From the IMG/VR virus record IMGVR_UViG_3300042282_000085: a DNA stretch of 64,000 nt; one strand, given 5' to 3'. The notes beneath the pieces were generated by a model. The model made no database searches. It was not told where the DNA came from and saw only the letters and a list, made by a program, of their open reading frames with translations. Shown in pieces: positions 2,653 through 39,801 of this stretch. The stretch comes from a virus (taxonomy: Duplodnaviria; Caudoviricetes). The position numbers and the translations under genes were made by a program. Numbering within the stretch: position 1 is the stretch's first letter; each line of letters begins with the position of its first letter.

Positions 2653-3590
2653 ACGGACACCTTCGCTTTAATAGCCGGATGCGGATTGTAATCTTCCAGA
2701 ATAAAGTCTTCGTATTTATAATCGAAGATTGAATCGGGCTTACGGGCAAACCGCATCTTGGGTAAAGGTCTAGGGTCCCGACTAAGTTGCTCCTGTACAA
2801 TGGTGGGGTCCTGGAGGTGGTCCTGGTACAGGTGTGTGTCACCGGTTACATGGATGTACTCGCCCAGCTCTAGGTCACACTGCTGTGCAATCATCATCGT
2901 CAATAGTGCGTAGGAGGCGATATTAAACGGCGCGCCGAGTTGGCTATCACAGCTACGCTGCAGCATCATGCAGCTTAGTTTGCCATTCTGTACGTAGAAC
3001 TGAAAAAACGTATGGCACGCCGGTAGGGCAGCCTTGCCATTACGGACATTGTCCTGAGGGGATATAGATTCATCAGGAAGGTCAGCCGGATTCCAAGCAC
3101 TGACAATAATGCGTCTGGAGTTAGGGTTCGTCTTCAACGTATCGATAACATTTTGAATCTGATTAATGGTACGTCTAACTACCGCTATCGGATGTCCAGT
3201 GACCTCATCCAACACTAGGCCGTGGTACGTGTATCCCTGCTCAAGGTACCTGGCAATCCCCTCAGGGCGAATCATTTTGGTATCGTCCCAGCTCACCCAC
3301 TGCTTGGAGTAGATTGGTCCTAGGCGACCATCCTCCAGTGCCCATTCATCCCAAATGCGTACACCGTTCTCTTTCAGGGTATTGTTGTTGGTATCGCCGG
3401 AGAGGAACCATAAGAGTTCATGGATAATGGATTTAAGGTGAACCTTTTTGGTGGTAAGCAGTGGGAAACCTGCGCTCAGGTCAAAGCGTAGCATGCGACC
3501 AAAGACCGAGCGCGTACCTGTACCTGTACGGTCGCCCTTATCAATGCCGTTGTCCAAGATATCTTGGAGCAGATTTAGATATTGCTGCAT
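2649..3590 (-). CDS. thyA: Thymidylate synthase
   Basis: DRTGTGT, PLLTTKK, ELLWFL, LPACH, QRSCD, PFNIASY, GDTHLY; carries an internal insertion after QWVSW. Confidence 0.98.
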
Positions 3591-4237: not shown

Positions 4238-4444
4238 TTAAACTGGCTGTCCGTCGAGTACTTCCTGCTCATTGTAGACAGGTAGGCAATATCGACATTT
4301 CTTGGTTAGGCTATATGCCCAGGTTTTACCGCCATCTATTGTACATTTGTATCCGTAAACGGAGCGGGTACCTGTGCCTGTACGGTCACCCTTATCGGTG
4401 CCATTTTCGATAACGTCGGCGGGTAGATCTGGATACTGTTGCAT
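4238..4444 (-). pseudogene. Truncated second thyA (N-terminal remnant)
   Basis: [31 protein letters not shown] versus thy[32 protein letters not shown]; then diverges and stops at 68 aa. Confidence 0.8.
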
Positions 4445-5962: not shown

Positions 5963-7171
5963 TTAGTAAAGTCCCTCACTATAGAGTTCATTGCCCGACC
6001 CACCATTGCGTTTAAAGTCAACGGGCTGACCAGCAGCTAGCGCCACCAGCAACGCCTCATGGCGATCCATGTACGTTTCCCATTGATCAATGAAGCCTTG
6101 TTCCCACTTACGATCATCCACGTAACCTAATTTAAGGTAGGCCTCTGCTTGAACGTGCATAGTGGGACAGAAGTGACGTGGGCCGACCAACATATAGTCA
6201 CCGTTTCTACAGGCAGCACATACGACCTTACGCAGAGGCACTTCGGAAACAGACGCCTGTAGCGGTGCTGCGTACAGAACCACCTTAGCGGTCTTACGGT
6301 CCCGAACTCCCATCAGAAGCACAGGGTAGGGTAGGTCCTCCAAGGGCGATTCTTTACCACCAACCAATACAGGGGTGCGCTCTACTGGATAGCCTTTATC
6401 CACCGTGTGACTATCCAAATTACAGTGGATGTGGTCCAATAGACCGATGGCTACTTTAAGGTTTACCACCGAGTAAATTCCCTTAACAACCTCTGTATGC
6501 GGTGTGTCATGCTGCACTGACCGCAGCTCATCCGGCAAGTCGCGATCATGCGGATCCAGCTCCATGAAACGCTGAAGCGCAGCCTTCAACTGATCCCGCT
6601 CTTGTTCTGCTTCAAAAAGGCGCTTAATTGATACAAGGTGCGTATCTGAAGCTACAACTTCACGCAATCGCTCCACCTCAGCCTGCAGCGGTGCCATGAG
6701 TGCCTCTGCAAACTCATACACATACGGGTTTAGGTCTTCGGATCCATGCGGCTGGGTTTTCAGTTTGAAGCCATTGGCCAGGACAAGTTCCTTGACCTGT
6801 TCACGCTGCACCGTCTTTTCTCCTCTCCGGAAAGGCACTACCCAGCGACTGTAGCTCTTGGAGTAGTTGTACCAATTCCCATCGCCAAAGCACAGGCCCC
6901 AGGCGTTGTAGGAATTGTTCTCGGTAGAGGACCAGGCGTATTCAATAGACTGCACAGATGCTACAGTTCGGGCGTCGTAAAGTGCATCTAAGATCATCCT
7001 ATCGGGCAATTCATACCCAAGCCCATGACAGTATGCCACACCCTCATGCCAATCACACTCTCTCCACAGTGACTGAGGGGCTACGGCCCAATACTCCGTA
7101 TCCGTGATATGGAAAACAGTATCTCCGTTATCCAGCACTGCGCCAACCTCAATTGCATTGCTACTAGTCAT
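5963..7171 (-). CDS. Chimeric protein: N-terminal CLec-fold (DUF1566/Lcl-like) domain with DGR variable repeat, fused to unrelated phage domains
   Basis: Residues 1-116 align with the C-terminal domains of 30305 and 32309 (GAVLDNG..AVAP..YC..LGYELP..WSSTE..AW.L.FG.GNWY..K..WVVPFRR); about 285 further aa follow in frame. Confidence 0.8.
   Translation of the reverse strand: MTSSNAIEVGAVLDNGDTVFHITDTEYWAVAPQSLWRECDWHEGVAYCHGLGYELPDRMILDALYDARTVASVQSIEYAWSSTENNSYNAWGLCFGDGNWYNYSKSYSRWVVPFRRGEKTVQREQVKELVLANGFKLKTQPHGSEDLNPYVYEFAEALMAPLQAEVERLREVVASDTHLVSIKRLFEAEQERDQLKAALQRFMELDPHDRDLPDELRSVQHDTPHTEVVKGIYSVVNLKVAIGLLDHIHCNLDSHTVDKGYPVERTPVLVGGKESPLEDLPYPVLLMGVRDRKTAKVVLYAAPLQASVSEVPLRKVVCAACRNGDYMLVGPRHFCPTMHVQAEAYLKLGYVDDRKWEQGFIDQWETYMDRHEALLVALAAGQPVDFKRNGGSGNELYSEGLY
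6824..6940 (-). repeat. DGR variable repeat copy VR3
   Basis: 117 nt identical to 31247-31363 and 33167-33283 except at codon positions 1-2 of NNC/NNT codons. Confidence 0.88.
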
Positions 7172-7173
7172 AG

Positions 7174-7374
7174 TTAAGTCCTTCGTTTACCCATCGGTAT
7201 AATTGACCACCAACCTACCTTCACTACCATCGTAATCATCGTCACCTCAGCGATTACCATAATGAAGGAAAAGTAAAAGGCGGCTTTGTATTTGCCGCCC
7301 ACTACATTCTGGCTTTGAAACCCACGTATAAAGACATAGGTGAAAGTGGATAAAAGTTGAATGAGATAAGACAT
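7174..7374 (-). CDS. Small membrane protein, possibly C-terminally truncated
   Basis: Two hydrophobic helices; ends abruptly (IIPMGKRRT) 2 nt before the VR3 gene. Confidence 0.55.
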   Translation of the reverse strand: MSYLIQLLSTFTYVFIRGFQSQNVVGGKYKAAFYFSFIMVIAEVTMITMVVKVGWWSIIPMGKRRT

Positions 7375-7429
7375 CACGCCCATCCTACTGTATAAGTGAC
7401 ACCGCTCTAAATTCTTGCGCAATCTTTAA

Positions 7430-7726: not shown

Positions 7727-8266
7727 TTAAGGGTTAACGGTGATGTCGACAGTGTAGCAGCTCTCTGTGTGACTATGATGTTCACAGAAGCTCTGGGCGG
7801 TGGGTGAGTGGGTACCGTCACTGTAAAAACAGTTTGTACCACTGCCCTTACGAACCTCATATGCCAGCTGCACGGATTGAGTAAAGAAGCCCTCCACCGG
7901 ATCGTTCGGTGTGGTCGGGGTGTTCAGCACGAGATAGCCTGATACTGGCGGTTTATAGGCAACAACCGCTGGATTGTTGACCTCCCAATAGAAGACTTCC
8001 CAATACCCAAAGAGTGAATAGCCCATGCAGCGATACAGGTGTCGGTACACTTCACTGTTCTTACCGTGCCCCAACGCATGCAGCAGAGGAACAAGGTCGT
8101 TTAATGACAGAGGTAACAGGGCGGCCTCTACCTCCGGATCAGGCATCCACCGCAGGGTGCCCTGCGGGTCTCGGATGATGGGGTGGTTGTGATGGGCCTC
8201 CGTCGCCATCATCTCCTGGTATTCTTCCGGCAGTGCCTCGCGTGGCACAATCTCGTAAGTACCCAT
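7727..8266 (-). CDS. Hypothetical protein
   Basis: Coupled to the upstream gene (TAATG). Confidence 0.7.
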   Translation of the reverse strand: MGTYEIVPREALPEEYQEMMATEAHHNHPIIRDPQGTLRWMPDPEVEAALLPLSLNDLVPLLHALGHGKNSEVYRHLYRCMGYSLFGYWEVFYWEVNNPAVVAYKPPVSGYLVLNTPTTPNDPVEGFFTQSVQLAYEVRKGSGTNCFYSDGTHSPTAQSFCEHHSHTESCYTVDITVNP

Positions 8267-8652: not shown

Positions 8653-8687
8653 GTTTACTCTCCTTAGAGTTAGGTATAGTCCCTAAG

Positions 8688-8701
8688 GTAATATAGGTTT
8701 T
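8688..8701 (-). promoter_or_regulatory. phiKZ-type early promoter
   Basis: Minus strand AAAACCTATATTAC (phiKZ early consensus TATATTAC), about 35 nt upstream of a start codon. Confidence 0.8.
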
Positions 8702-8817
8702 CGTTAATCTAGAATAGTTAATCTAAAGAAAAAAAAAGAGGAGTATCCTCTTTTAGTGCTGGAGCCAGGCCTCCAGCTTCGCAATGTCACCCTGGTCTTT
8801 ATTCCGTAGGCACGCTG

Positions 8818-11003: not shown

Positions 11004-12332
11004 CTATTTAAGGTTACTGATACCTTTACCAGTAGCACCTACCAAAGCAGAGGCTACAGCTCCACCGTGGCGATAGAGTTCACGAGAGGTTATGCTCAAG
11101 GTATTGCTCCAACGACGGATCATTATAATGCTGATGGTTGAAGGACGCATACTCGGTACCAAGGTACCAGCTAGCAGCAGTGCCAATTCTCGAGGAGGGA
11201 GTTTACGTAATCCATCTAAGGATGCCTTATGCTTGTCCATCACTGCAATGTTTGCTTTATGCTCCTGCTTCAGGTTAATCATCCCTTTAATAAGGTCTCC
11301 TGTAGCACGGTTAAGGTCCTCCAGATCCTTTTTAGAAGGCGCATTTGTCACAAAGCTATTAGACGCTTGTTTGTTTGCACGGTAGTCCGCCCTCATATCG
11401 AATAGGTAAAGACGACCATACTCAGTAGAGTCGCCCTTAGGCTTACCGATAGAGGCCACGATGCGGATGCCACCCATCAAAGCATTCTTAGAAGCCATAA
11501 ACTCCTTACTGAACAGGGCACTGGAAATAGCACCGAAGATACCCTTAGGCTCTGTGGTAACCGCTAGACCGTAATGCGACAGGATGGCTTTCTGTGCTGC
11601 CTCCATACGGTTATTGCGACTGTTAGTATTGCCTTCATCCTTAGACGCCTCCATAGCTACGTCCATCGCATCCCGTAGGGCGGACATATCGCTCCACTGC
11701 AGGATGCCCTTTGTGAAGTCAGCCACATCCTTAGCGGTGGGGATAGCCTGCTTCTTACCCGGGATATAAAGATGCTTACCATTCTTGATCTTGAGGGTAT
11801 CATTCTTAGGTACATTGCCAATGCGACTCAAATCCGCGCGCTGTGCATCGACGCGTTTCTGAATGCCATTGAGGCGTGCGAAGAAGACGTCCCCAAACTT
11901 ATTTAGGGCGTCTATATACCCTTCATAGAAAGCACCGAATTTCTTGATCACGCGCTGAACTGCGTCGCCGACACCCTCCATTGCGATATGCAAGTCAGCT
12001 GAGAGACTATCATTAGACTCGAAGGCAGGCGTAGCGATTGGCCATTCCTCGTCACAGAAAGCGAGGAGAGTAGTGGCCTGGTCATAGTACATCTGACCCA
12101 TTTCCATAGAAACCGGAGTCTCAGTATCCTTAAGACGCGCATCCATCTTAAGGTAGAGATCCGACAACCCTTCAAGGGCAAACCCCATGCGGTCCAAGGC
12201 ATCGGCGGTTTCTTCCAACGCGATGACTTCACTGGAGAGGTCATAATCCTCTTCATCCATGAAGCTATAAACCTCCACGTCATCGGTAAGGCTTTCCTGT
12301 GCAATCGCTTGTGCAAGTATATTTTTCAACAT
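11004..12332 (-). CDS. Virion head/inner-body protein with acidic propeptide
   Basis: Acidic N-terminal ~120 aa with AQE, ALE, ALE, SME, AFE and AME sites (phiKZ prohead protease S/A/G-x-E), then a basic body. Confidence 0.7.
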   Translation of the reverse strand: MLKNILAQAIAQESLTDDVEVYSFMDEEDYDLSSEVIALEETADALDRMGFALEGLSDLYLKMDARLKDTETPVSMEMGQMYYDQATTLLAFCDEEWPIATPAFESNDSLSADLHIAMEGVGDAVQRVIKKFGAFYEGYIDALNKFGDVFFARLNGIQKRVDAQRADLSRIGNVPKNDTLKIKNGKHLYIPGKKQAIPTAKDVADFTKGILQWSDMSALRDAMDVAMEASKDEGNTNSRNNRMEAAQKAILSHYGLAVTTEPKGIFGAISSALFSKEFMASKNALMGGIRIVASIGKPKGDSTEYGRLYLFDMRADYRANKQASNSFVTNAPSKKDLEDLNRATGDLIKGMINLKQEHKANIAVMDKHKASLDGLRKLPPRELALLLAGTLVPSMRPSTISIIMIRRWSNTLSITSRELYRHGGAVASALVGATGKGISNLK

Positions 12333-26071: not shown

Positions 26072-26992
26072 ATGACACGTTCATTGCAGTTTTTGAGCTC
26101 CACCCAGTACACTGAGGTTGCAGCTCTGCCGGATAATCCGACGGTTGGTCAAACCGCCTTCATGAATGGCATTCTCTACATCTATGCCAGTCTGAATGGC
26201 GTTACGACCTGGTTCCCGCTGAACCAACCCCAGTCGTTCTACATCCATAGCCAGGGTCTGGCCAAACTGACCTGGGAAATTCACCATAACCTGGGTAGCC
26301 GCGATGCGATCATTGCGGTCTATGACATGGATAACCGCATGATGGATGCGGACATTCAGCATATCCAGAATACCGAAACCGGCGAGTGGTATATTGTTGC
26401 AACCTTTACAGAAGCTGTTATGGGATACGCGGTGGTCTTTGGCCGTGAGAATATCTCTGCACCTTCTGTCGATGCTCAGGTCATTAACGCGACCGATGGT
26501 ATTTACGTCGGCGGTGTCTCCGTGGCACTGGAAACCGATGTTGGTTTGTTGCTGCTGGAGCTGGACAAGAAGGTCGCCACGCTCGATATTGAAGATACTG
26601 TTACCTCTACTGACGCTACCGTACCGTTGTCTGCCAACCAAGGTCGCGTGTTGAAAGGGCTGATCGACAATATCAATGCCCTGTTGGCGTCTGACGACAC
26701 CACGTTGGATGAACTCCAGGAAGTGGTCAACTTCATCAAACAGAACAAGGCCACCTTGGATAGTCTGGGCATCTCCAGCATTGCAGGTCTTCAGGATGCG
26801 TTGGATACACTGACCAACAACTTGGCAACCGAAGTGAGTCGTGCGACCGGTGCGGAAGCTACCCTGCAAACTAACATTGATGTCAAGTTGGATAAAACCG
26901 GCGTAGCAGCCGATTCCAGTAAGTTAGGGAATCTGCCTGCCTCGGATTACATCACTGTCCACGATACCATCGATATGGGTGAGATTGCATAA
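26072..26992 (+). CDS. Tail-fibre-related protein
   Basis: WEIHHNLGS domain; PLSANQGRVLKGLID and DDTTLDELQEVVNFIK fibre motifs; ends IDMGEIA. Confidence 0.7.
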   Translation: MTRSLQFLSSTQYTEVAALPDNPTVGQTAFMNGILYIYASLNGVTTWFPLNQPQSFYIHSQGLAKLTWEIHHNLGSRDAIIAVYDMDNRMMDADIQHIQNTETGEWYIVATFTEAVMGYAVVFGRENISAPSVDAQVINATDGIYVGGVSVALETDVGLLLLELDKKVATLDIEDTVTSTDATVPLSANQGRVLKGLIDNINALLASDDTTLDELQEVVNFIKQNKATLDSLGISSIAGLQDALDTLTNNLATEVSRATGAEATLQTNIDVKLDKTGVAADSSKLGNLPASDYITVHDTIDMGEIA

Positions 26993-27038
26993 CACCTAGT
27001 GCCGGGGATACTGTCCCCGGCTTTTAAGGAGCCTATAC

Positions 27039-27695
27039 ATGCATTGTGAGTTATTACGTGGTACTGAGAAGATACGAGGGCCTCTACCCTATAAGCCCGC
27101 AATGCTGGCTAAGGTGTTTGCCCGATTGGGACTAAAGTTCCCGCCTTTACCGCAAACCTTAACGGCTCCGGTCTCTGATCTCAGTGCCACCCATACCCTT
27201 TACCCTGTTACAATTAACAAACCACCCGCCTCTCGGCAGGAGGACAGTGTCCTAGCCAGCCGTACTGTGGATGCGAATGGTGTTACCTATACGTACAATA
27301 CAGTACCCCGTAACTATGATGCACTTAGATTACAGCTAAAGGAACGCATTTCGGGACGCCATGCCCTCTATGAGCTCAATTACGTAACCTTTGATTCGGT
27401 TGCAATTAAAGCCGACCTAGAAGCCCGTATTAATGCTGCTGAAATCGTGGAGAGTTTTCAAAAAGGTAAAATCAACAGCATTAAGTGGCGCGGTAAGAAT
27501 GGCAAGATAACGGTTGAAAGCATCGAAACCATGCAGGCTATCTATGACACTATCTTCCGGTACCTGCATATAGGGTTTGCGGCTAAAGAGATCGCAGAAG
27601 ACACGGTTGATACCTCTAGTGATGCAGAGTTGGTATCTTTAGATCCGATTGCTATATTCGATACCGCCGTAACGACCTTAGAGTCTGTAATGTAG
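27039..27695 (+). CDS. Tail-fibre assembly chaperone-like protein (DUF4376-like)
   Basis: Paralog of 31562 (MxCE..R, DLEAR.NA, W.G, MQA.YD..F.HL..GF.AKE). Confidence 0.6.
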   Translation: MHCELLRGTEKIRGPLPYKPAMLAKVFARLGLKFPPLPQTLTAPVSDLSATHTLYPVTINKPPASRQEDSVLASRTVDANGVTYTYNTVPRNYDALRLQLKERISGRHALYELNYVTFDSVAIKADLEARINAAEIVESFQKGKINSIKWRGKNGKITVESIETMQAIYDTIFRYLHIGFAAKEIAEDTVDTSSDAELVSLDPIAIFDTAVTTLESVM

Positions 27696-27707: not shown

Positions 27708-28436
27708 ATGAGACGTTCCCATGGTTTTAGCTTCCTACCGGGTGCGCGGGCGAGGAATTTCAGAGTAGATCGGTATCCGGTCTCACCCGAAGACCTTCTA
27801 GAAGAAGGACGCGTGTGGTATGGAGAAGATGACGACACCCTGCGGTACAGTAAAACAGAAAGTGGCCTATTGGTTCCACGCCGAGTGTTAGATTCTGAAC
27901 CCAAGTGGGCGGACTTAACCGCACCGATTAATCCCGACAGTGGGGTAGGGGTTAGTACCCCAAGCTGGGAAGCATTTAGGGGTGACTTTTCGGCAATGCT
28001 GTTTTTGTCAAATAAGAGTCAATCGGTTCAGGTGGCCTTCCACATTAACCACGACTATGCACTGGGTACCGAGATCTTCCCTCATGTCCATTGGACCAAT
28101 AAGGTACCTGGTGAAACAGGTACAGTGCGGTGGGGGGTTGACCTGCTAGTGGCGCAGGGTCACCAACAAGATAACTTCAATGGTGTGATTGACACGATCT
28201 ACATCGAGCAAGCTGGGGTAGGGGGTACCTTGGACCATATGGTGGCCGAGTCTACGGTAGGATTCTATGACCCGCGACTGGAACCCGATACATTGGTGTA
28301 TTGTCGAATATTCAGAGACTCCGGTCACCCGAACGATACCGCCGGTAACGTGTACGGGCTTACGATAGATGTACACTATCAGCTCGATGACGTGGGTACT
28401 CCATCTAAGTCGCCTGACTTTTACGCGCGTAATTAA
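27708..28436 (+). CDS. Virion protein sharing its N-terminal domain with 24066
   Basis: RRSHGF..NFRVDR..GRVWY..DTLRYS versus RKHHGI..NMHVER..GRLWY..KLLRFS. Confidence 0.6.
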   Translation: MRRSHGFSFLPGARARNFRVDRYPVSPEDLLEEGRVWYGEDDDTLRYSKTESGLLVPRRVLDSEPKWADLTAPINPDSGVGVSTPSWEAFRGDFSAMLFLSNKSQSVQVAFHINHDYALGTEIFPHVHWTNKVPGETGTVRWGVDLLVAQGHQQDNFNGVIDTIYIEQAGVGGTLDHMVAESTVGFYDPRLEPDTLVYCRIFRDSGHPNDTAGNVYGLTIDVHYQLDDVGTPSKSPDFYARN

Positions 28437-30304: not shown

Positions 30305-31375
30305 ATGGCCTTAAAACAAATGAGCGGTGTGGTTACGTGGAAGCGCTTTACCACGAACAGCATCGAAACGTACTTGGGTAAGCCGGGTGAACCGATTGTC
30401 GACATGCGCACTGGTGAGCCGGCAATTCGTTTATGTGATGGATTGACACCGATGGGTCACCCAATTGGGGTTATTCCAACGTTGACTGGTGTGGCACGCC
30501 CTATCATTATTAGCCCGGTTAATAATGCTACAGATGTCGATACCTCACCGGTGATTACTGCCAGTCAATTTAACGGCATTAACGGCGACGGCAGTATCCC
30601 AACACATGCGGCGACTATCTGGAACATTGCAACGGATGCCGCCTTTACCCAGATGACGTATAATAGTGGTGAAACGGCACTGAATAAAACGACACTGGAT
30701 CTTTCCAGTGTAGGAGTAACACTGGAGCAAGGTAGTGTTTACTATATACGCGTAGCGTATAAGAGTGACAGTGGTGTGGTGTCCGACTGGAGTGCTACCG
30801 TTAAGATTACGACCAGTACTATGGGAATTGGCACAGTACTACCGGACGGTGGTATCGTTTTCGGTCAGGAAGGGGGCGACTGGCTGGTAGTAGCCCCGGC
30901 TTCACAGCGTACGACTAAAATGTGGGGACTCTACGGTACCGATACCAGTCTTCCAAACTGGACGAGTGGCAGTGGGACTACTACTACCCCTACTGACCCT
31001 AACTCATCAGAGTACAATACTGACGTACTGACGAGTCCTACTTATAACTCCATTAACGATGGACAGGGTAGTATCGGCTCACCCGCTGCAGAGTACTGCC
31101 GTAGTCTAGGGTACGACTTACCCAATGCGAGGGATCTGCAGCTTATTTACAATAATCGAGCTCAGATCGATGCAGCGGACTCTAGTGGAGGCGGTGCCAC
31201 ACTCTCCGCTATTCAATCTGGCACTGCACCCGGCTCCTCCACGACGTACGTCTGGTCCTCTACCGAGTACGGTTCCAACTTCGCCTGGTACCTGCTCTTT
31301 GGCAATGGGAATTGGTACAACATCAACAAGAACGTCAGTATCTGGGTAGTGCCTTTCCGGAGAATACCCGTTTAA
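30305..31375 (+). CDS. Mtd-like receptor-binding protein, DGR target 1 (Mtd_N + Ig/Fn3-like + CLec with VR)
   Basis: N-terminus KRFT..YLGKPGE..RLCDGLTPMG; RP.I.SP..YYIRVAY..SDWS; C-terminus YVWSSTE..WVVPFRRIPV. Confidence 0.85.
   Translation: MALKQMSGVVTWKRFTTNSIETYLGKPGEPIVDMRTGEPAIRLCDGLTPMGHPIGVIPTLTGVARPIIISPVNNATDVDTSPVITASQFNGINGDGSIPTHAATIWNIATDAAFTQMTYNSGETALNKTTLDLSSVGVTLEQGSVYYIRVAYKSDSGVVSDWSATVKITTSTMGIGTVLPDGGIVFGQEGGDWLVVAPASQRTTKMWGLYGTDTSLPNWTSGSGTTTTPTDPNSSEYNTDVLTSPTYNSINDGQGSIGSPAAEYCRSLGYDLPNARDLQLIYNNRAQIDAADSSGGGATLSAIQSGTAPGSSTTYVWSSTEYGSNFAWYLLFGNGNWYNINKNVSIWVVPFRRIPV
31247..31363 (+). repeat. DGR variable repeat copy VR1
   Basis: Three-way alignment with VR2 and VR3; invariant 3' end TGGGTAGTGCCTTTCCGGAGA. 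Confidence 0.9.
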
Positions 31376-31435
31376 ACGGGTATTCACTTTTAATACCGAG
31401 TCACAGTGAGTGTCCTTTAAAGGACACTGCTTTTA

Positions 31436-31524
31436 GGGCTTGCCCTTTGTAGGGCTGCCCTTACTACCCTTACTCCATTTAAAAGCCCTACAGGCCACCC
31501 AGGCCCTTTGTAGGGACTGGGTCC
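31436..31524 (+). repeat. 89-nt non-coding element, copy 1
   Basis: Near-identical to 33328-33416; contains two GCCCTTTGTAGGG hairpin units. Confidence 0.85.
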
Positions 31525-32308: not shown

Positions 32309-33295
32309 ATGCCAGATTTACAATTGAAACGCGGTACACCGGCTCAGGTAGATGCCTATCAGGGGCCAGCGGGTGAAATCGTAGTCGATAGCCAGAACTG
32401 GAATATGCGGCTACAGGACGGTGTTACAGCTGGTGGTGTATTACTAGGCAGTAACGAGAACCTGATTGCACGCCCTGAGATTTTGAGTCCCATTCAGGGT
32501 AGTGTCATTGGGGACCAGAGCCCTATTCTGGTTAGTACCGCGTATAGTGGGGAAGGGGTCCACAGTGCGAGTCAGTGGCAGATCAGTGGAGAGGTTGGGT
32601 TTGTAAACCTTATCCACGATAGCGGACGCAATACAGTTAGTCTATTGAGCTATAACTTACTGGATGCAGGTGTAACCTTGACCCGTGGGGTAACGCTGTA
32701 CGTACGGGTGCGTCACGAATCCGGTACTGCAGGCTGGAGTGAATGGAGTGAAGCACTAAGCTTCAGTGTACAGGCAATGGAGCCGGGTACTGTACTGGAT
32801 GACGGTGGCATTATATTTGCACAGGATGGTAATGATTGGCTCGTTGTAGCGCCTGCTAGTCTGCGTGCACTGAGAACCTGGAACGATGGGTCTACTAGTT
32901 GGGTAGACACCCCACTCCCTAACTATACTTCTAATCCAGAGCAAGACGTTAACGATGGTACTTACAATACGGATGTACTGGTTAACGTGACGCAGGAGCA
33001 GAAGGCCGCTACCTACTGCCGTTCTATCGGCTATGATTTGCCGAATGCGGCAGAGCTTCGTTTAATTTACAATAATCGAGCTCAGATCGATGCAGCAGAT
33101 ACCAGCGGAGGCGGGGCCACACTCTCCGCTATCCAATCCGGCACTGCACCCGGCTCCACCACGGCGTACGTCTGGTCCTCTACCGAGTACAATTCCTTCG
33201 TCGCCTGGGCCCTGTACTTTGGCAATGGGAATTGGTACGCCAGCATCAAGCACAACAGTGTCTGGGTAGTGCCTTTCCGGAGAATCCCAGTCTAA
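32309..33295 (+). CDS. Mtd-like receptor-binding protein, DGR target 2
   Basis: Start after AGGAG; LQLKRGT..AYQGPAGEIVVD..RLQDGVTAGG (Mtd_N-like); same architecture as 30305. Confidence 0.87.
   Translation: MPDLQLKRGTPAQVDAYQGPAGEIVVDSQNWNMRLQDGVTAGGVLLGSNENLIARPEILSPIQGSVIGDQSPILVSTAYSGEGVHSASQWQISGEVGFVNLIHDSGRNTVSLLSYNLLDAGVTLTRGVTLYVRVRHESGTAGWSEWSEALSFSVQAMEPGTVLDDGGIIFAQDGNDWLVVAPASLRALRTWNDGSTSWVDTPLPNYTSNPEQDVNDGTYNTDVLVNVTQEQKAATYCRSIGYDLPNAAELRLIYNNRAQIDAADTSGGGATLSAIQSGTAPGSTTAYVWSSTEYNSFVAWALYFGNGNWYASIKHNSVWVVPFRRIPV
33167..33283 (+). repeat. DGR variable repeat copy VR2
   Basis: See the VR1/VR3 alignment. Confidence 0.9.
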
Positions 33296-33327
33296 TCGCC
33301 TTAAGGCGATGACTGGGATTTGCCTTT

Positions 33328-33416
33328 GGGCTTGCCCTTTGTAGGGCTGCCCTTACTACTTTGAGTACTTTTAAAAGCCGTACAGGCTACCCAGGCCCTT
33401 TGTAGGGACTGGGTCC
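33328..33416 (+). repeat. 89-nt non-coding element, copy 2
   Basis: Near-identical to 31436-31524. Confidence 0.85.
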
Positions 33417-39648: not shown

Positions 39649-39685
39649 AACGCTACTCTCCTTAGAGTCTGGTATATACACTAAT

Positions 39686-39699
39686 GTAATATAGGTTTT
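39686..39699 (-). promoter_or_regulatory. phiKZ-type early promoter
   Basis: AAAACCTATATTAC. Confidence 0.8.
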
Positions 39700-39801
39700 C
39701 AGGTTGTATGAATGTACCTCTTTTACTATAGACTTCTATGGGGACTATAAATTAATAAATAGAGATACTCCTTCCCCTGCTAGGGGAAGGAGTATTTAAG
39801 G

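What the first reader, a model, noticed from the sequence alone, without database searches (positions are those of the whole stretch)
5963..7171. DGR variable repeat inside an early, apparently non-structural chimeric protein
Seen: this VR-bearing CLec domain has no Mtd_N or Ig anchor, sits at the N-terminus, and reads through into about 285 aa of unrelated modules (NGFKLK..DLNPYVYEFA, a coiled coil, and CAAC..RH..QGFIDQ..LYSE). It is in the operon downstream of the early promoter at 8688, about 23 kb from the tail genes. Its VR retains full third-position identity with the tail VRs although the rest of the domain is highly diverged, which implies recent retrohoming from the same TR. Established: VRs are usually C-terminal and, in phages, on receptor-binding proteins. 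Inference: a hypervariable intracellular binder, for example for host takeover or anti-defence. A weak hairpin (CAGGTCAAG-GAA-CTTGTCCTG, minus strand 6779-6799) lies about 25 nt past the VR and could be a coding-embedded recognition element.
Basis: partly seen in the sequence, partly recalled or inferred. Interest (0 to 1): 0.85.

Follow-up and report, generated by a model that had tools for sequence, protein, structure and literature searches.

The report
Rarely rewritten DGR target in early gene
A phiKZ-like giant phage carries a third, remote target of its mutagenic retroelement inside an early-operon fusion protein; the target is real and conserved, but in the assemblies available it stays fixed while the two tail-fibre targets are being rewritten.

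Summary
ORF 5963-7171(-) is a conserved 402-aa fusion with three parts:
- an N-terminal Lcl_C/DUF1566-type lectin domain;
- a lineage-specific helical insert;
- a C-terminal module ending in a T4 Arn.3 (Pfam T4_Y16D) domain of unknown function.

Its 117-nt VR (6824-6940) is a genuine DGR variable repeat. Against the template repeat of the nearest relative (G001), 14 of 39 adenine sites differ but only 1 of 77 other sites. TR, Avd and RT lie outside the window.

The "hypervariable" reading is not supported, for two reasons.
- **No variation across samples.** The gene is DNA-identical, VR included, in the four fetched contigs, and its product is identical on 12 contigs from at least 4 samples. 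On one of those contigs both tail VRs differ from the window at 16 and 17 sites, all template adenines.
- **No hairpin.** The tail VRs are followed directly by strong hairpins.

Relatives join the same lectin-VR head to other early-gene modules. G001 has six such genes, whose VRs range from template-like to degraded.

Best reading: a live but rarely rewritten secondary target. Its role as a binder-effector is inferred, not shown. Earlier scan notes had flagged the same multi-target DGR.

The parts
5963..7171 (-). 402-aa fusion gene (stop included)
   Evidence: ORF list. RBS and coupling to the upstream gene. Orthologs P0002-P0008 share the N-terminus and the C-terminal module.
6809..7171 (-). 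N-terminal Lcl_C/DUF1566-type lectin domain, residues 1-121
   Evidence: Aligns end to end with the tail lectin domains and the G001 paralogs (A5). tblastn to the tail domains gives E 1e-19 and 1e-17. The Pfam Lcl_C hit is below threshold here (E 0.23) and E 2e-9 to 6e-4 in the other VR-bearing proteins scanned. The nearest Atlas clusters are Lcl_C families, score 0.95.
6824..6940 (-). Variable repeat (VR3), 39 codons
   Evidence: Against the G001 TR, 14/39 A sites and 1/77 non-A sites differ. 11 of the 16 AAY codons of the TR are changed (read).
6824..6844 (-). Invariant 21-nt 3' end shared by the TR and the VRs matched in the scan (IMH-like)
   Evidence: The same 21 nt are found in the TR, in all three window VRs and in four of the G001 VRs. 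Homology to the TR stops right after it.
6512..6808 (-). Lineage-specific insert, residues 122-220: a short conserved motif followed by a helical hairpin
   Evidence: phrog_5217 N-terminal part, E 7e-12. Absent from G001 and from the orthologs P0003, P0004, P0005 and P0008. Modelled helices 148-175 and 179-204 have pLDDT around 80. The motif occurs in a few hypothetical phage proteins.
6251..6511 (-). Beta-rich subdomain, residues 221-307
   Evidence: AF2 gives pLDDT above 85 over most of it. Only weak hot-dog-like matches, Z 3.8. It is 84% identical in P0009, which has a different C-terminus.
5966..6250 (-). T4 Arn.3 / Pfam T4_Y16D domain, residues 308-402
   Evidence: phrog_839 E 4e-27. A precomputed PF26092 hit is on record, and the Atlas names that family T4_Y16D, TM 0.76/0.81. 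tblastn to T4 arn.3 gives E 8e-13. 806 representative clusters. R, H, G and Q are invariant.
6779..6799 (-).
   Evidence: It appears in the MFE fold, but the region has dG -8.9 and z -1.6. The G001 ortholog has other sequence here (z -1.1).
8688..8695 (-). phiKZ-type early promoter consensus TATATTAC upstream of the operon
   Evidence: 8 sites in the window against 3.0 expected. The consensus is cited in PMC7058600, Table 2. It lies in a 47-nt element repeated at 39654-39700.
7174..7422 (-). Upstream small membrane protein, translationally coupled to the fusion gene
   Evidence: phrog_7045 'holin', E 1e-9. Its stop codon lies 2 nt before the ATG of the fusion gene.
31247..31383 (+). Tail VR1 plus the hairpin that follows it directly (comparison)
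   Evidence: 0/79 non-A mismatches to the TR. Hairpin region dG -13.9, z -5.6. 16 A-site differences between samples.
33167..33319 (+). Tail VR2 plus the hairpin that follows it directly (comparison)
   Evidence: 0/79 non-A mismatches. Hairpin region dG -23.6, z -7.8. 17 A-site differences between samples.

Best explanation
The gene encodes a conserved, probably cytoplasmic, early-operon protein of a phiKZ-like jumbo phage. An Lcl_C/DUF1566 lectin-fold head is joined, through a helical insert found only in this lineage, to a two-part C-terminal module that ends in a T4 Arn.3-like domain.

The head carries a true variable repeat of the phage's single DGR. The Avd-TR-RT cassette lies elsewhere in the genome and acts in trans.

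Because the VR is internal to the gene, it has no room for the strong hairpin that directly follows the two tail VRs. It is therefore rewritten only rarely. It has been overwritten from the TR within the evolutionary life of the family, but it is fixed in the present population while the tail VRs turn over.

By inference, the lectin head is the ligand-binding part that brings the Arn.3-like module (conserved R-H ... QGF ... Q motif, function unknown) to a target in the infected cell.
For: Shown:
- **A-specific VR/TR pattern.** 14/39 A sites against 1/77 non-A sites differ, p = 4e-7.
- **Canonical cassette in the relative G001.** The order is target, bAvd, TR, RT.
- **The DGR is active in this population.** The window and contig Ga0451655_000886 differ at 16 sites in VR1 and 17 in VR2, all TR adenines.
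- **VR3 does not change.** On that same contig 4160 nt spanning the fusion gene have 0 differences. The product from Met59 is identical on 12 contigs from at least 4 samples and forms a single-member cluster.
- **Hairpins.** They start 0 nt after the tail VRs (z -4.4 to -8.0) and are absent after VR3 and its G001 ortholog (z -1.6 and -1.1).
- **Published requirement.** A hairpin just after the VR is needed for efficient retrohoming (PMC3240598). C-terminal placement of VRs has been attributed to this constraint (PMC8144416).
- **Rewriting over evolutionary time.** Ortholog pairs that are 88% identical outside the VR share only 20-24 of 37 VR residues.
- **Early context.** A TATATTAC motif lies upstream, the gene follows the DNA ligase gene, and it is coupled to the upstream gene.
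- **Domain identities.**

Inferred: the cytoplasmic location, the binder-effector logic, and the causal link between the missing hairpin and the static VR.
Against: - The TR used is that of a relative that shares only 32% of the window's sampled 31-letter words. The window's own TR and RT were not seen.
- Consensus assemblies cannot show minority VR variants. VR3 could be rewritten as often as the tail VRs if its variants never sweep.
- The lectin fold of the head was not confirmed by structure (pLDDT 30-60).
- The window's own Pfam score for Lcl_C is below threshold.
- No function is known for the Arn.3/Y16D domain, and no solved fold matches it.
- Structural genes are scattered in phiKZ-like genomes, so gene position does not exclude a virion protein.
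Confidence: 0.65

Rival explanations
1. One reading: an actively hypervariable intracellular binder. The DGR continually diversifies it to track host takeover or anti-defence targets.
For: - A genuine VR with an intact 21-nt 3' end and only 1 non-A mismatch.
- Early-operon context and no signal peptide.
- The C-terminal domain is homologous to T4 arn.3, which lies in the arn-motA early cluster.
- The same fold occurs in large polyvalent proteins.
- 2 of 135 family members carry a Lar-like restriction-alleviation domain.
- The VR differs between all orthologs.
Against: - No VR variant exists among 12 contigs or anywhere in the protein collection, while both tail VRs have several variants in the same population.
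- There is no significant hairpin after the VR.
- The early paralogs in G001 accumulate non-A mismatches, which indicates weak maintenance.
Confidence: 0.15
2. A dead relic. The lectin-VR module spread into early genes by duplication or recombination of tail-fibre sequence. It now serves only as a fixed domain, or as nothing, and its VR is no longer a DGR substrate.
For: - VR3 is static in all contigs and has no hairpin.
- The G001 paralogs show 3, 3, 4, 10, 13 and 20 non-A mismatches, a decay series.
- VR3 itself carries one non-A change, GTC to GCC.
Against: - 76 of 77 non-A sites, including all third codon positions, still equal the TR, although the rest of the domain is only 31-43% identical to the tail domains. 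This argues for overwriting that is recent relative to that divergence.
- The IMH-like end is intact.
- The reading frame and the lectin scaffold are conserved across several lineages.
Confidence: 0.15
3. A virion-associated protein, packaged, injected or decorating the particle, whose lectin head binds a cell-surface ligand as the tail targets do.
For: - Lectin-fold DGR targets in phages are typically receptor binders (PMC8144416). N-terminal lectin VR proteins such as tentaclins are thought to be structural (PMC10743442).
- Virion genes are scattered across this genome; an internal-head-protein-like gene lies at 11004-12332.
Against: - No Mtd_N, Ig or fibre-anchoring domain.
- Early promoter motif and replication-gene neighbourhood.
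- The C-terminal module is homologous to T4 arn.3, which lies in T4's arn-motA gene cluster.
Confidence: 0.05

Closest known systems
Bordetella phage BPP-1 DGR and its target Mtd
   Same: One TR, with Avd and RT, writes adenine-randomised cDNA into a lectin-fold VR. The TR and VRs share an invariant 3' end, and hairpins follow the tail VRs. The tail targets here show the Mtd pattern (Mtd_N hit E 1e-3 in tail protein 2).
   Different: This target lies about 24 kb from the nearest tail VR. In the relative G001 its ortholog lies about 70 kb from the TR. The VR is internal rather than C-terminal, no hairpin follows it, the protein has no Mtd_N, and it shows no current variation.
Tentaclins (N-terminal lectin VR followed by Ig domains; PMC10743442)
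   Same: [quoted passage not shown] It is a second target served by the same TR as a tail protein.
   Different: Tentaclins continue into 1-4 Ig domains with a consensus C-terminal Ig and are read as virion decorations. This protein continues into a helical insert and a T4 Arn.3-like module and sits in an early operon.
T4 Arn.3 (Pfam T4_Y16D, PHROG 839)
   Same: The C-terminal 95 residues are homologous (40% identity, E 8e-13) and share the motifs VVCAA, GxRH, QGFIDQ and LYSE.
   Different: Most family members are stand-alone proteins of 90-140 aa. A fusion to a DGR-targeted lectin head was seen only in this phage group (1 of 135 aligned members). The function of the family is unknown.
Multi-target and remote-target DGRs (Treponema, Legionella, CPR bacteria; discussed in PMC8144416 and PMC10743442)
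   Same: One TR serves several VRs, some of them far from the cassette.
   Different: Here the extra targets lie in a jumbo phage. They are small early-region proteins or fusions rather than surface proteins, and they range from TR-like to degraded.

Membership tests
DGR variable repeat (target site) | The VR matches a TR with mismatches confined to TR adenines | tested here: met
   14/39 A sites against 1/77 non-A sites differ from the TR of relative G001. The window's own TR is not in the window.
DGR variable repeat (target site) | An RT with an accessory Avd and a TR is present in the same genome | not testable with these tools
   No third, adenine-rich copy of the repeat that could serve as the TR is found in the 64-kb window, and the own assembly is not held. 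Relative G001 has the order target, bAvd, TR, RT. An unchecked scan note places a cassette 62 kb before the window.
DGR variable repeat (target site) | An invariant IMH-like 3' end is shared with the TR | tested here: met
   The 21-nt end is identical in the TR and in all three window VRs.
DGR variable repeat (target site) | A GC-rich hairpin or cruciform lies just downstream of the VR (PMC3240598) | tested here: not met
   z = -1.6 for the 70 nt after VR3, against -5.6 and -7.8 after the tail VRs. The candidate has a 3-nt loop and one mismatch, and it is absent from the G001 ortholog.
DGR variable repeat (target site) | VR-limited variation among otherwise identical genomes | tested here: not met
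   0 differences in 4-7 kb spanning the gene in the four fetched contigs, and the product is identical on 12 contigs. The criterion is met for both tail VRs. It is met only over longer divergence for orthologs.
Lcl_C / DUF1566 (PF07603) lectin-fold domain | A profile match above Pfam's gathering score | tested here: inconclusive
   The window protein scores E 0.23, 12.2 bits, against a cut-off of 34.9. The other VR-bearing proteins scanned score E 2e-9 to 6e-4, and P0002 is above the cut-off. The nearest Atlas clusters are Lcl_C, 0.95. The structure model of this domain is poor.
T4_Y16D (PF26092) / T4 Arn.3 | Sequence and fold match over the roughly 95-aa domain | tested here: met
   Precomputed PF26092 hit. 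phrog_839 E 4e-27. T4 arn.3 E 8e-13. Atlas TM 0.76/0.81. The family is not in the local Pfam copy.
Mtd-type receptor-binding protein | An N-terminal Mtd_N domain and beta-sandwich or Ig domains before the lectin domain | tested here: not met
   No Mtd_N or Ig hit at E up to 1. The lectin domain starts at residue 8.
Tentaclin | An N-terminal lectin domain followed by Ig domains with a consensus C-terminal Ig | tested here: not met
   The downstream parts are a helical insert, a beta-rich subdomain and the Y16D domain. There is no Ig hit.

The most novel reading that the evidence does not exclude
phiKZ-like jumbo phages use one DGR both for their tail fibres and to re-aim a set of early, intracellular proteins. 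A portable lectin-VR head would be recombined onto different effector modules (Arn.3-like, the 7727-8266 family and others) and occasionally rewritten. This would amount to a slow adaptive repertoire for host takeover or counter-defence.
Probability: 0.2. Interest if true: 0.85.

Novelty: new variant of a known kind. Interest (0 to 1): 0.55.

Why it matters
DGR targets in phages are almost always taken to be C-terminal VRs on receptor-binding virion proteins. Large surveys could not see remote targets (PMC8144416), and a survey of 224 jumbo phages found no DGR-type lectin domains (PMC7824862).

This case shows a jumbo-phage DGR with many VRs, some of them inside early-region proteins and fusions. 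It also provides a natural within-genome comparison. VRs with a hairpin turn over, whereas an internal VR without one stays fixed. That makes the cis-element rule for retrohoming testable on natural sequence. It also cautions against calling a protein hypervariable merely because it carries a VR.

Tried and rejected
- **No TR in the window.** blastn finds only the three VR copies.
- **Own assembly not held**.
- **Viral contig collection.** It returned only G001.
- **Sequence searches for the protein.** Pfam, NCBIfam, PADLOC and a PDB sequence search gave nothing beyond weak Lcl_C hits.
- **Fold of the C-terminal half.** It was modelled with confidence (pLDDT 91.6) but has no solved relative. 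Foldseek gives E above 0.5. VIA-align gives at best Z 3.8, a hot-dog-like match on the first subdomain only.
- **Full-length model.** The lectin head came out at pLDDT 30-60, so its fold could not be checked.
- **Profile of lectin domains against the PDB.** The top hit was spurious (DC-SIGNR neck repeats), followed by a weak hit to 8q4e 'HbP1', E 0.01. No paper was found on HbP1 in connection with DGRs.
- **Literature.** Searches for Y16D, and for DGRs together with nucleus-forming phages, found nothing relevant.
- **Start at Met59.** Rejected, because residues 1-58 are conserved and complete the lectin domain.
Rejected.

Full report
**1. The object**

ORF 5963-7171 on the minus strand encodes 402 residues. 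The ATG at 7171 is preceded by GAAGGA and lies 2 nt after the stop codon of the upstream 82-aa membrane protein. That protein matches phrog_7045 'holin' at E 1e-9.

Public gene calls start at Met59 instead (P0001, 344 aa). Residues 1-58 are nevertheless conserved in every ortholog, and they form the first half of the lectin domain when aligned with the tail domains (A5). The 402-aa reading is therefore correct.

**2. The repeat is a real DGR variable repeat**

blastn finds exactly three copies of a 117-nt segment in the window:
- 31247-31363(+), at the end of a 356-aa tail protein;
- 33167-33283(+), at the end of a 328-aa tail protein;
- 6824-6940(-), inside this ORF.

None of the three is adenine-rich, so the TR is not in the window. 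The window's own assembly is not held.

The nearest held record is G001, an IMG/VR contig of 195.5 kb estimated 71% complete, which shares 32% of the window's sampled 31-letter words. It has 11 copies of the repeat. It also has a canonical cassette:
- a 431-aa Lcl_C target;
- a bAvd-like gene;
- a non-coding TR with 16 AAY codons (codon count read from the TR printed);
- an RT (RVT_1, E 1.7e-18).

Mismatches to that TR:

| VR | A sites changed | Non-A sites changed |
|---|---|---|
| VR3 (this ORF) | 14/39 | 1/77 |
| Tail VR1 | 14/40 | 0/79 |
| Tail VR2 | 17/40 | 0/79 |

For VR3 the contrast between A and non-A sites gives Fisher p = 4e-7. All third codon positions of VR3 equal the TR. By contrast, the rest of the domain is only 31-43% identical in protein to the tail domains.

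**3. The VR is not varying now, while the tail VRs are**

The product from Met59, which includes the VR, is identical on 12 JGI contigs from at least four samples. It forms a single-member 90% cluster, and the next relative in 5.8 billion proteins is 77% identical. At DNA level, four fetched contigs match the window over 4-7 kb around the gene: three have no difference in the stretch spanning the gene, and the fourth has one mismatch and one gap over 6.8 kb.

The tail proteins of the same phage behave differently. Each falls in a 7-member cluster. Several members are identical or nearly identical outside the VR but differ at 11-14 VR residues.

The clearest case is contig Ga0451655_000886 (43,443 bp, sample 3300042272). 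It carries the fusion gene with 0 differences over 4160 nt. In the tail region it differs from the window at 16 positions in VR1 and 17 in VR2, and every one of these is a TR adenine.

The DGR is therefore active in this population but has not changed VR3. The caveat is that consensus assemblies hide minority variants.

**4. A cis-element difference fits this behaviour**

The tail VRs, their G001 equivalents and the cassette-proximal target are followed, with no spacer, by strong hairpins. These have 8-9 bp stems and TTAA loops, with dG -13.9 to -23.6 and z -4.4 to -8.0 against shuffles.

The 70 nt after VR3 give dG -8.9 and z -1.6. The G001 ortholog gives z -1.1.

In BPP-1, a hairpin or cruciform just after the VR is required for efficient retrohoming, and its stem integrity, 4-nt loop and spacing all matter (PMC3240598). 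Roux et al. proposed that VRs are C-terminal because these elements must escape coding constraint (PMC8144416).

A low homing efficiency at this internal VR is therefore a reasonable inference. It is not a demonstrated fact.

**5. Longer timescale**

Orthologous fusions exist in several lineages (P0002-P0008, 305-440 aa). P0002 has two tandem lectin-VR heads. Pairs that are 88% identical outside the VR share only 20-24 of 37 VR residues, which is close to the invariant scaffold alone. The family's VR has therefore been rewritten since these lineages split.

In G001, six lectin-VR genes lie just downstream of the DNA ligase gene. Their VRs carry 3, 3, 4, 10, 13 and 20 non-A mismatches to the TR. 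This is a series from maintained to decaying, compared with 0-2 for the tail and cassette targets.

**6. Modules**

- **Head, residues 1-121.** It matches Lcl_C/DUF1566 (PF07603). The match is weak in this protein (E 0.23), is found in all the other VR-bearing proteins scanned, and is above the cut-off in P0002. The nearest Atlas clusters are small viral Lcl_C proteins (0.95).
- **Insert, residues 122-220.** It matches the N-terminal part of phrog_5217 (E 7e-12). It is modelled as a helical hairpin and is absent from G001 and from the orthologs P0003, P0004, P0005 and P0008.
- **C-terminal half, residues 221-402.** It folds confidently (pLDDT 91.6) into a beta-rich subdomain plus a 95-aa domain.
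- **The 95-aa domain.** It is Pfam T4_Y16D and phrog_839 (E 4e-27). It is homologous to T4 Arn.3, E 8e-13. T4 arn.3 lies in the arn-motA early gene cluster.
- **The Y16D family.** It has 806 representative clusters, mostly 90-140-aa stand-alone proteins, with invariant R, H, G and Q.
- **Stand-alone C-terminal halves.** P0018 and P0019 are unfused versions of the whole C-terminal half, so the lectin head is the added part.
- **Fold comparisons.** No solved fold matches. In BFVD the fold recurs in uncharacterised phage proteins and inside 'large polyvalent protein' entries.
- **Lar-like fusions.** 2 of 135 members carry a Lar-like restriction-alleviation domain.

These associations hint at host takeover or counter-defence. 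They do not show it.

**7. Module shuffling**

P0010 joins the same head to a homolog (70% identity) of the neighbouring window gene 7727-8266. P0009 keeps the head and the beta-rich subdomain (84% identity) but ends in an unrelated 200-aa region. The lectin-VR head therefore behaves as a portable N-terminal module in the early region of this phage group.

**8. Context**

The window is from a phiKZ-like phage:
- it has a PHIKZ128 homolog (E 2e-56);
- it has a phiKZ-type major head protein and other virion proteins;
- the relative G001 has a tubulin-like gene, weakly matched (32 bits, just under Pfam's cut-off of 33).

The published phiKZ early-promoter consensus TATATTAC (PMC7058600, Table 2) occurs 8 times in the window against 3 expected. 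One site, at 8688-8695(-), follows a terminator-like hairpin after the ligase gene. It lies upstream of the run of minus-strand genes that ends with this ORF. Early expression is thus plausible but not shown.

Because virion genes are scattered in such genomes, distance from the tail genes alone does not prove a non-structural role.

**9. Comparison and verdict**

An N-terminal VR-lectin is not unprecedented, since tentaclins have one (PMC10743442). Multi-target DGRs are also known. Three things appear to be new:
- the host genome type, given that a survey of 224 jumbo phages found no such domains (PMC7824862);
- the fusion of the head to early-gene modules such as Arn.3;
- the natural contrast between hairpin-bearing VRs that turn over and an internal VR that is static.

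I file this as a new variant of a known kind.

Earlier scan notes on this genome had already flagged the multi-target DGR, the hairpins after the tail VRs, and a cassette upstream of the window. I verified the first two here. I could check the third only in the relative G001.

Noticed in passing
L019 (G001:103000-111000), ORFs at 1659, 2895, 3511, 4819, 5542 and 6111: Six lectin-VR genes of 134-315 aa lie in a row downstream of the DNA ligase gene in the relative. Their VRs carry 3 to 20 non-A mismatches to the TR, a series from maintained to decaying targets. The window keeps only one of them.
   Followed up: partly
P0002 (440 aa), P0009 (409 aa), P0010 (291 aa): Variant architectures in relatives. 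P0002 has two tandem lectin-VR heads before the Arn.3-like module. P0009 has the head and the beta-rich subdomain with an unrelated C-terminus. P0010 has the head fused to a homolog of window gene 7727-8266.
   Followed up: partly
window 8656-8702 and 39654-39700: A 47-nt element, 87% identical between the two sites, holds the phiKZ early-promoter consensus and a ribosome-binding site. TATATTAC occurs 8 times in the window, 7 of them on the minus strand.
   Followed up: partly
window 26193-27100, compared with L028:2-910: Between two samples of otherwise 99-100% identical phage, a roughly 900-nt stretch of the tail-fibre-repeat gene 26072-26992 is only 85.6% identical. This suggests a swapped fibre segment that is independent of the DGR.
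   Followed up: no
window 28238-28416: Five clustered substitutions between the window and contig Ga0451655_000886 lie outside any VR, at the end of ORF 27708-28436.
   Followed up: no
window 31433-31524 and 33325-33416: A 92-nt element, 90% identical between the two sites and containing internal hairpins, follows both tail DGR targets, beyond the hairpins that abut the VRs.
   Followed up: no
window 3505-3590 and 4359-4444: An 86-nt direct repeat (74% identity) covers the 5' ends of two minus-strand genes. Public gene calls mark thymidylate synthase on one of them and a weak hit on a 68-aa neighbour.
   Followed up: no
P0170 and P0176 (G001-type contigs) compared with the window tail proteins: Outside the VRs, tail protein 1 is identical, and tail protein 2 differs at one residue next to the VR, between the window phage and the G001-type phage. 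Their early regions, in contrast, differ strongly (77% identity for the ortholog, with different numbers of lectin genes), so the genomes are mosaic.
   Followed up: no
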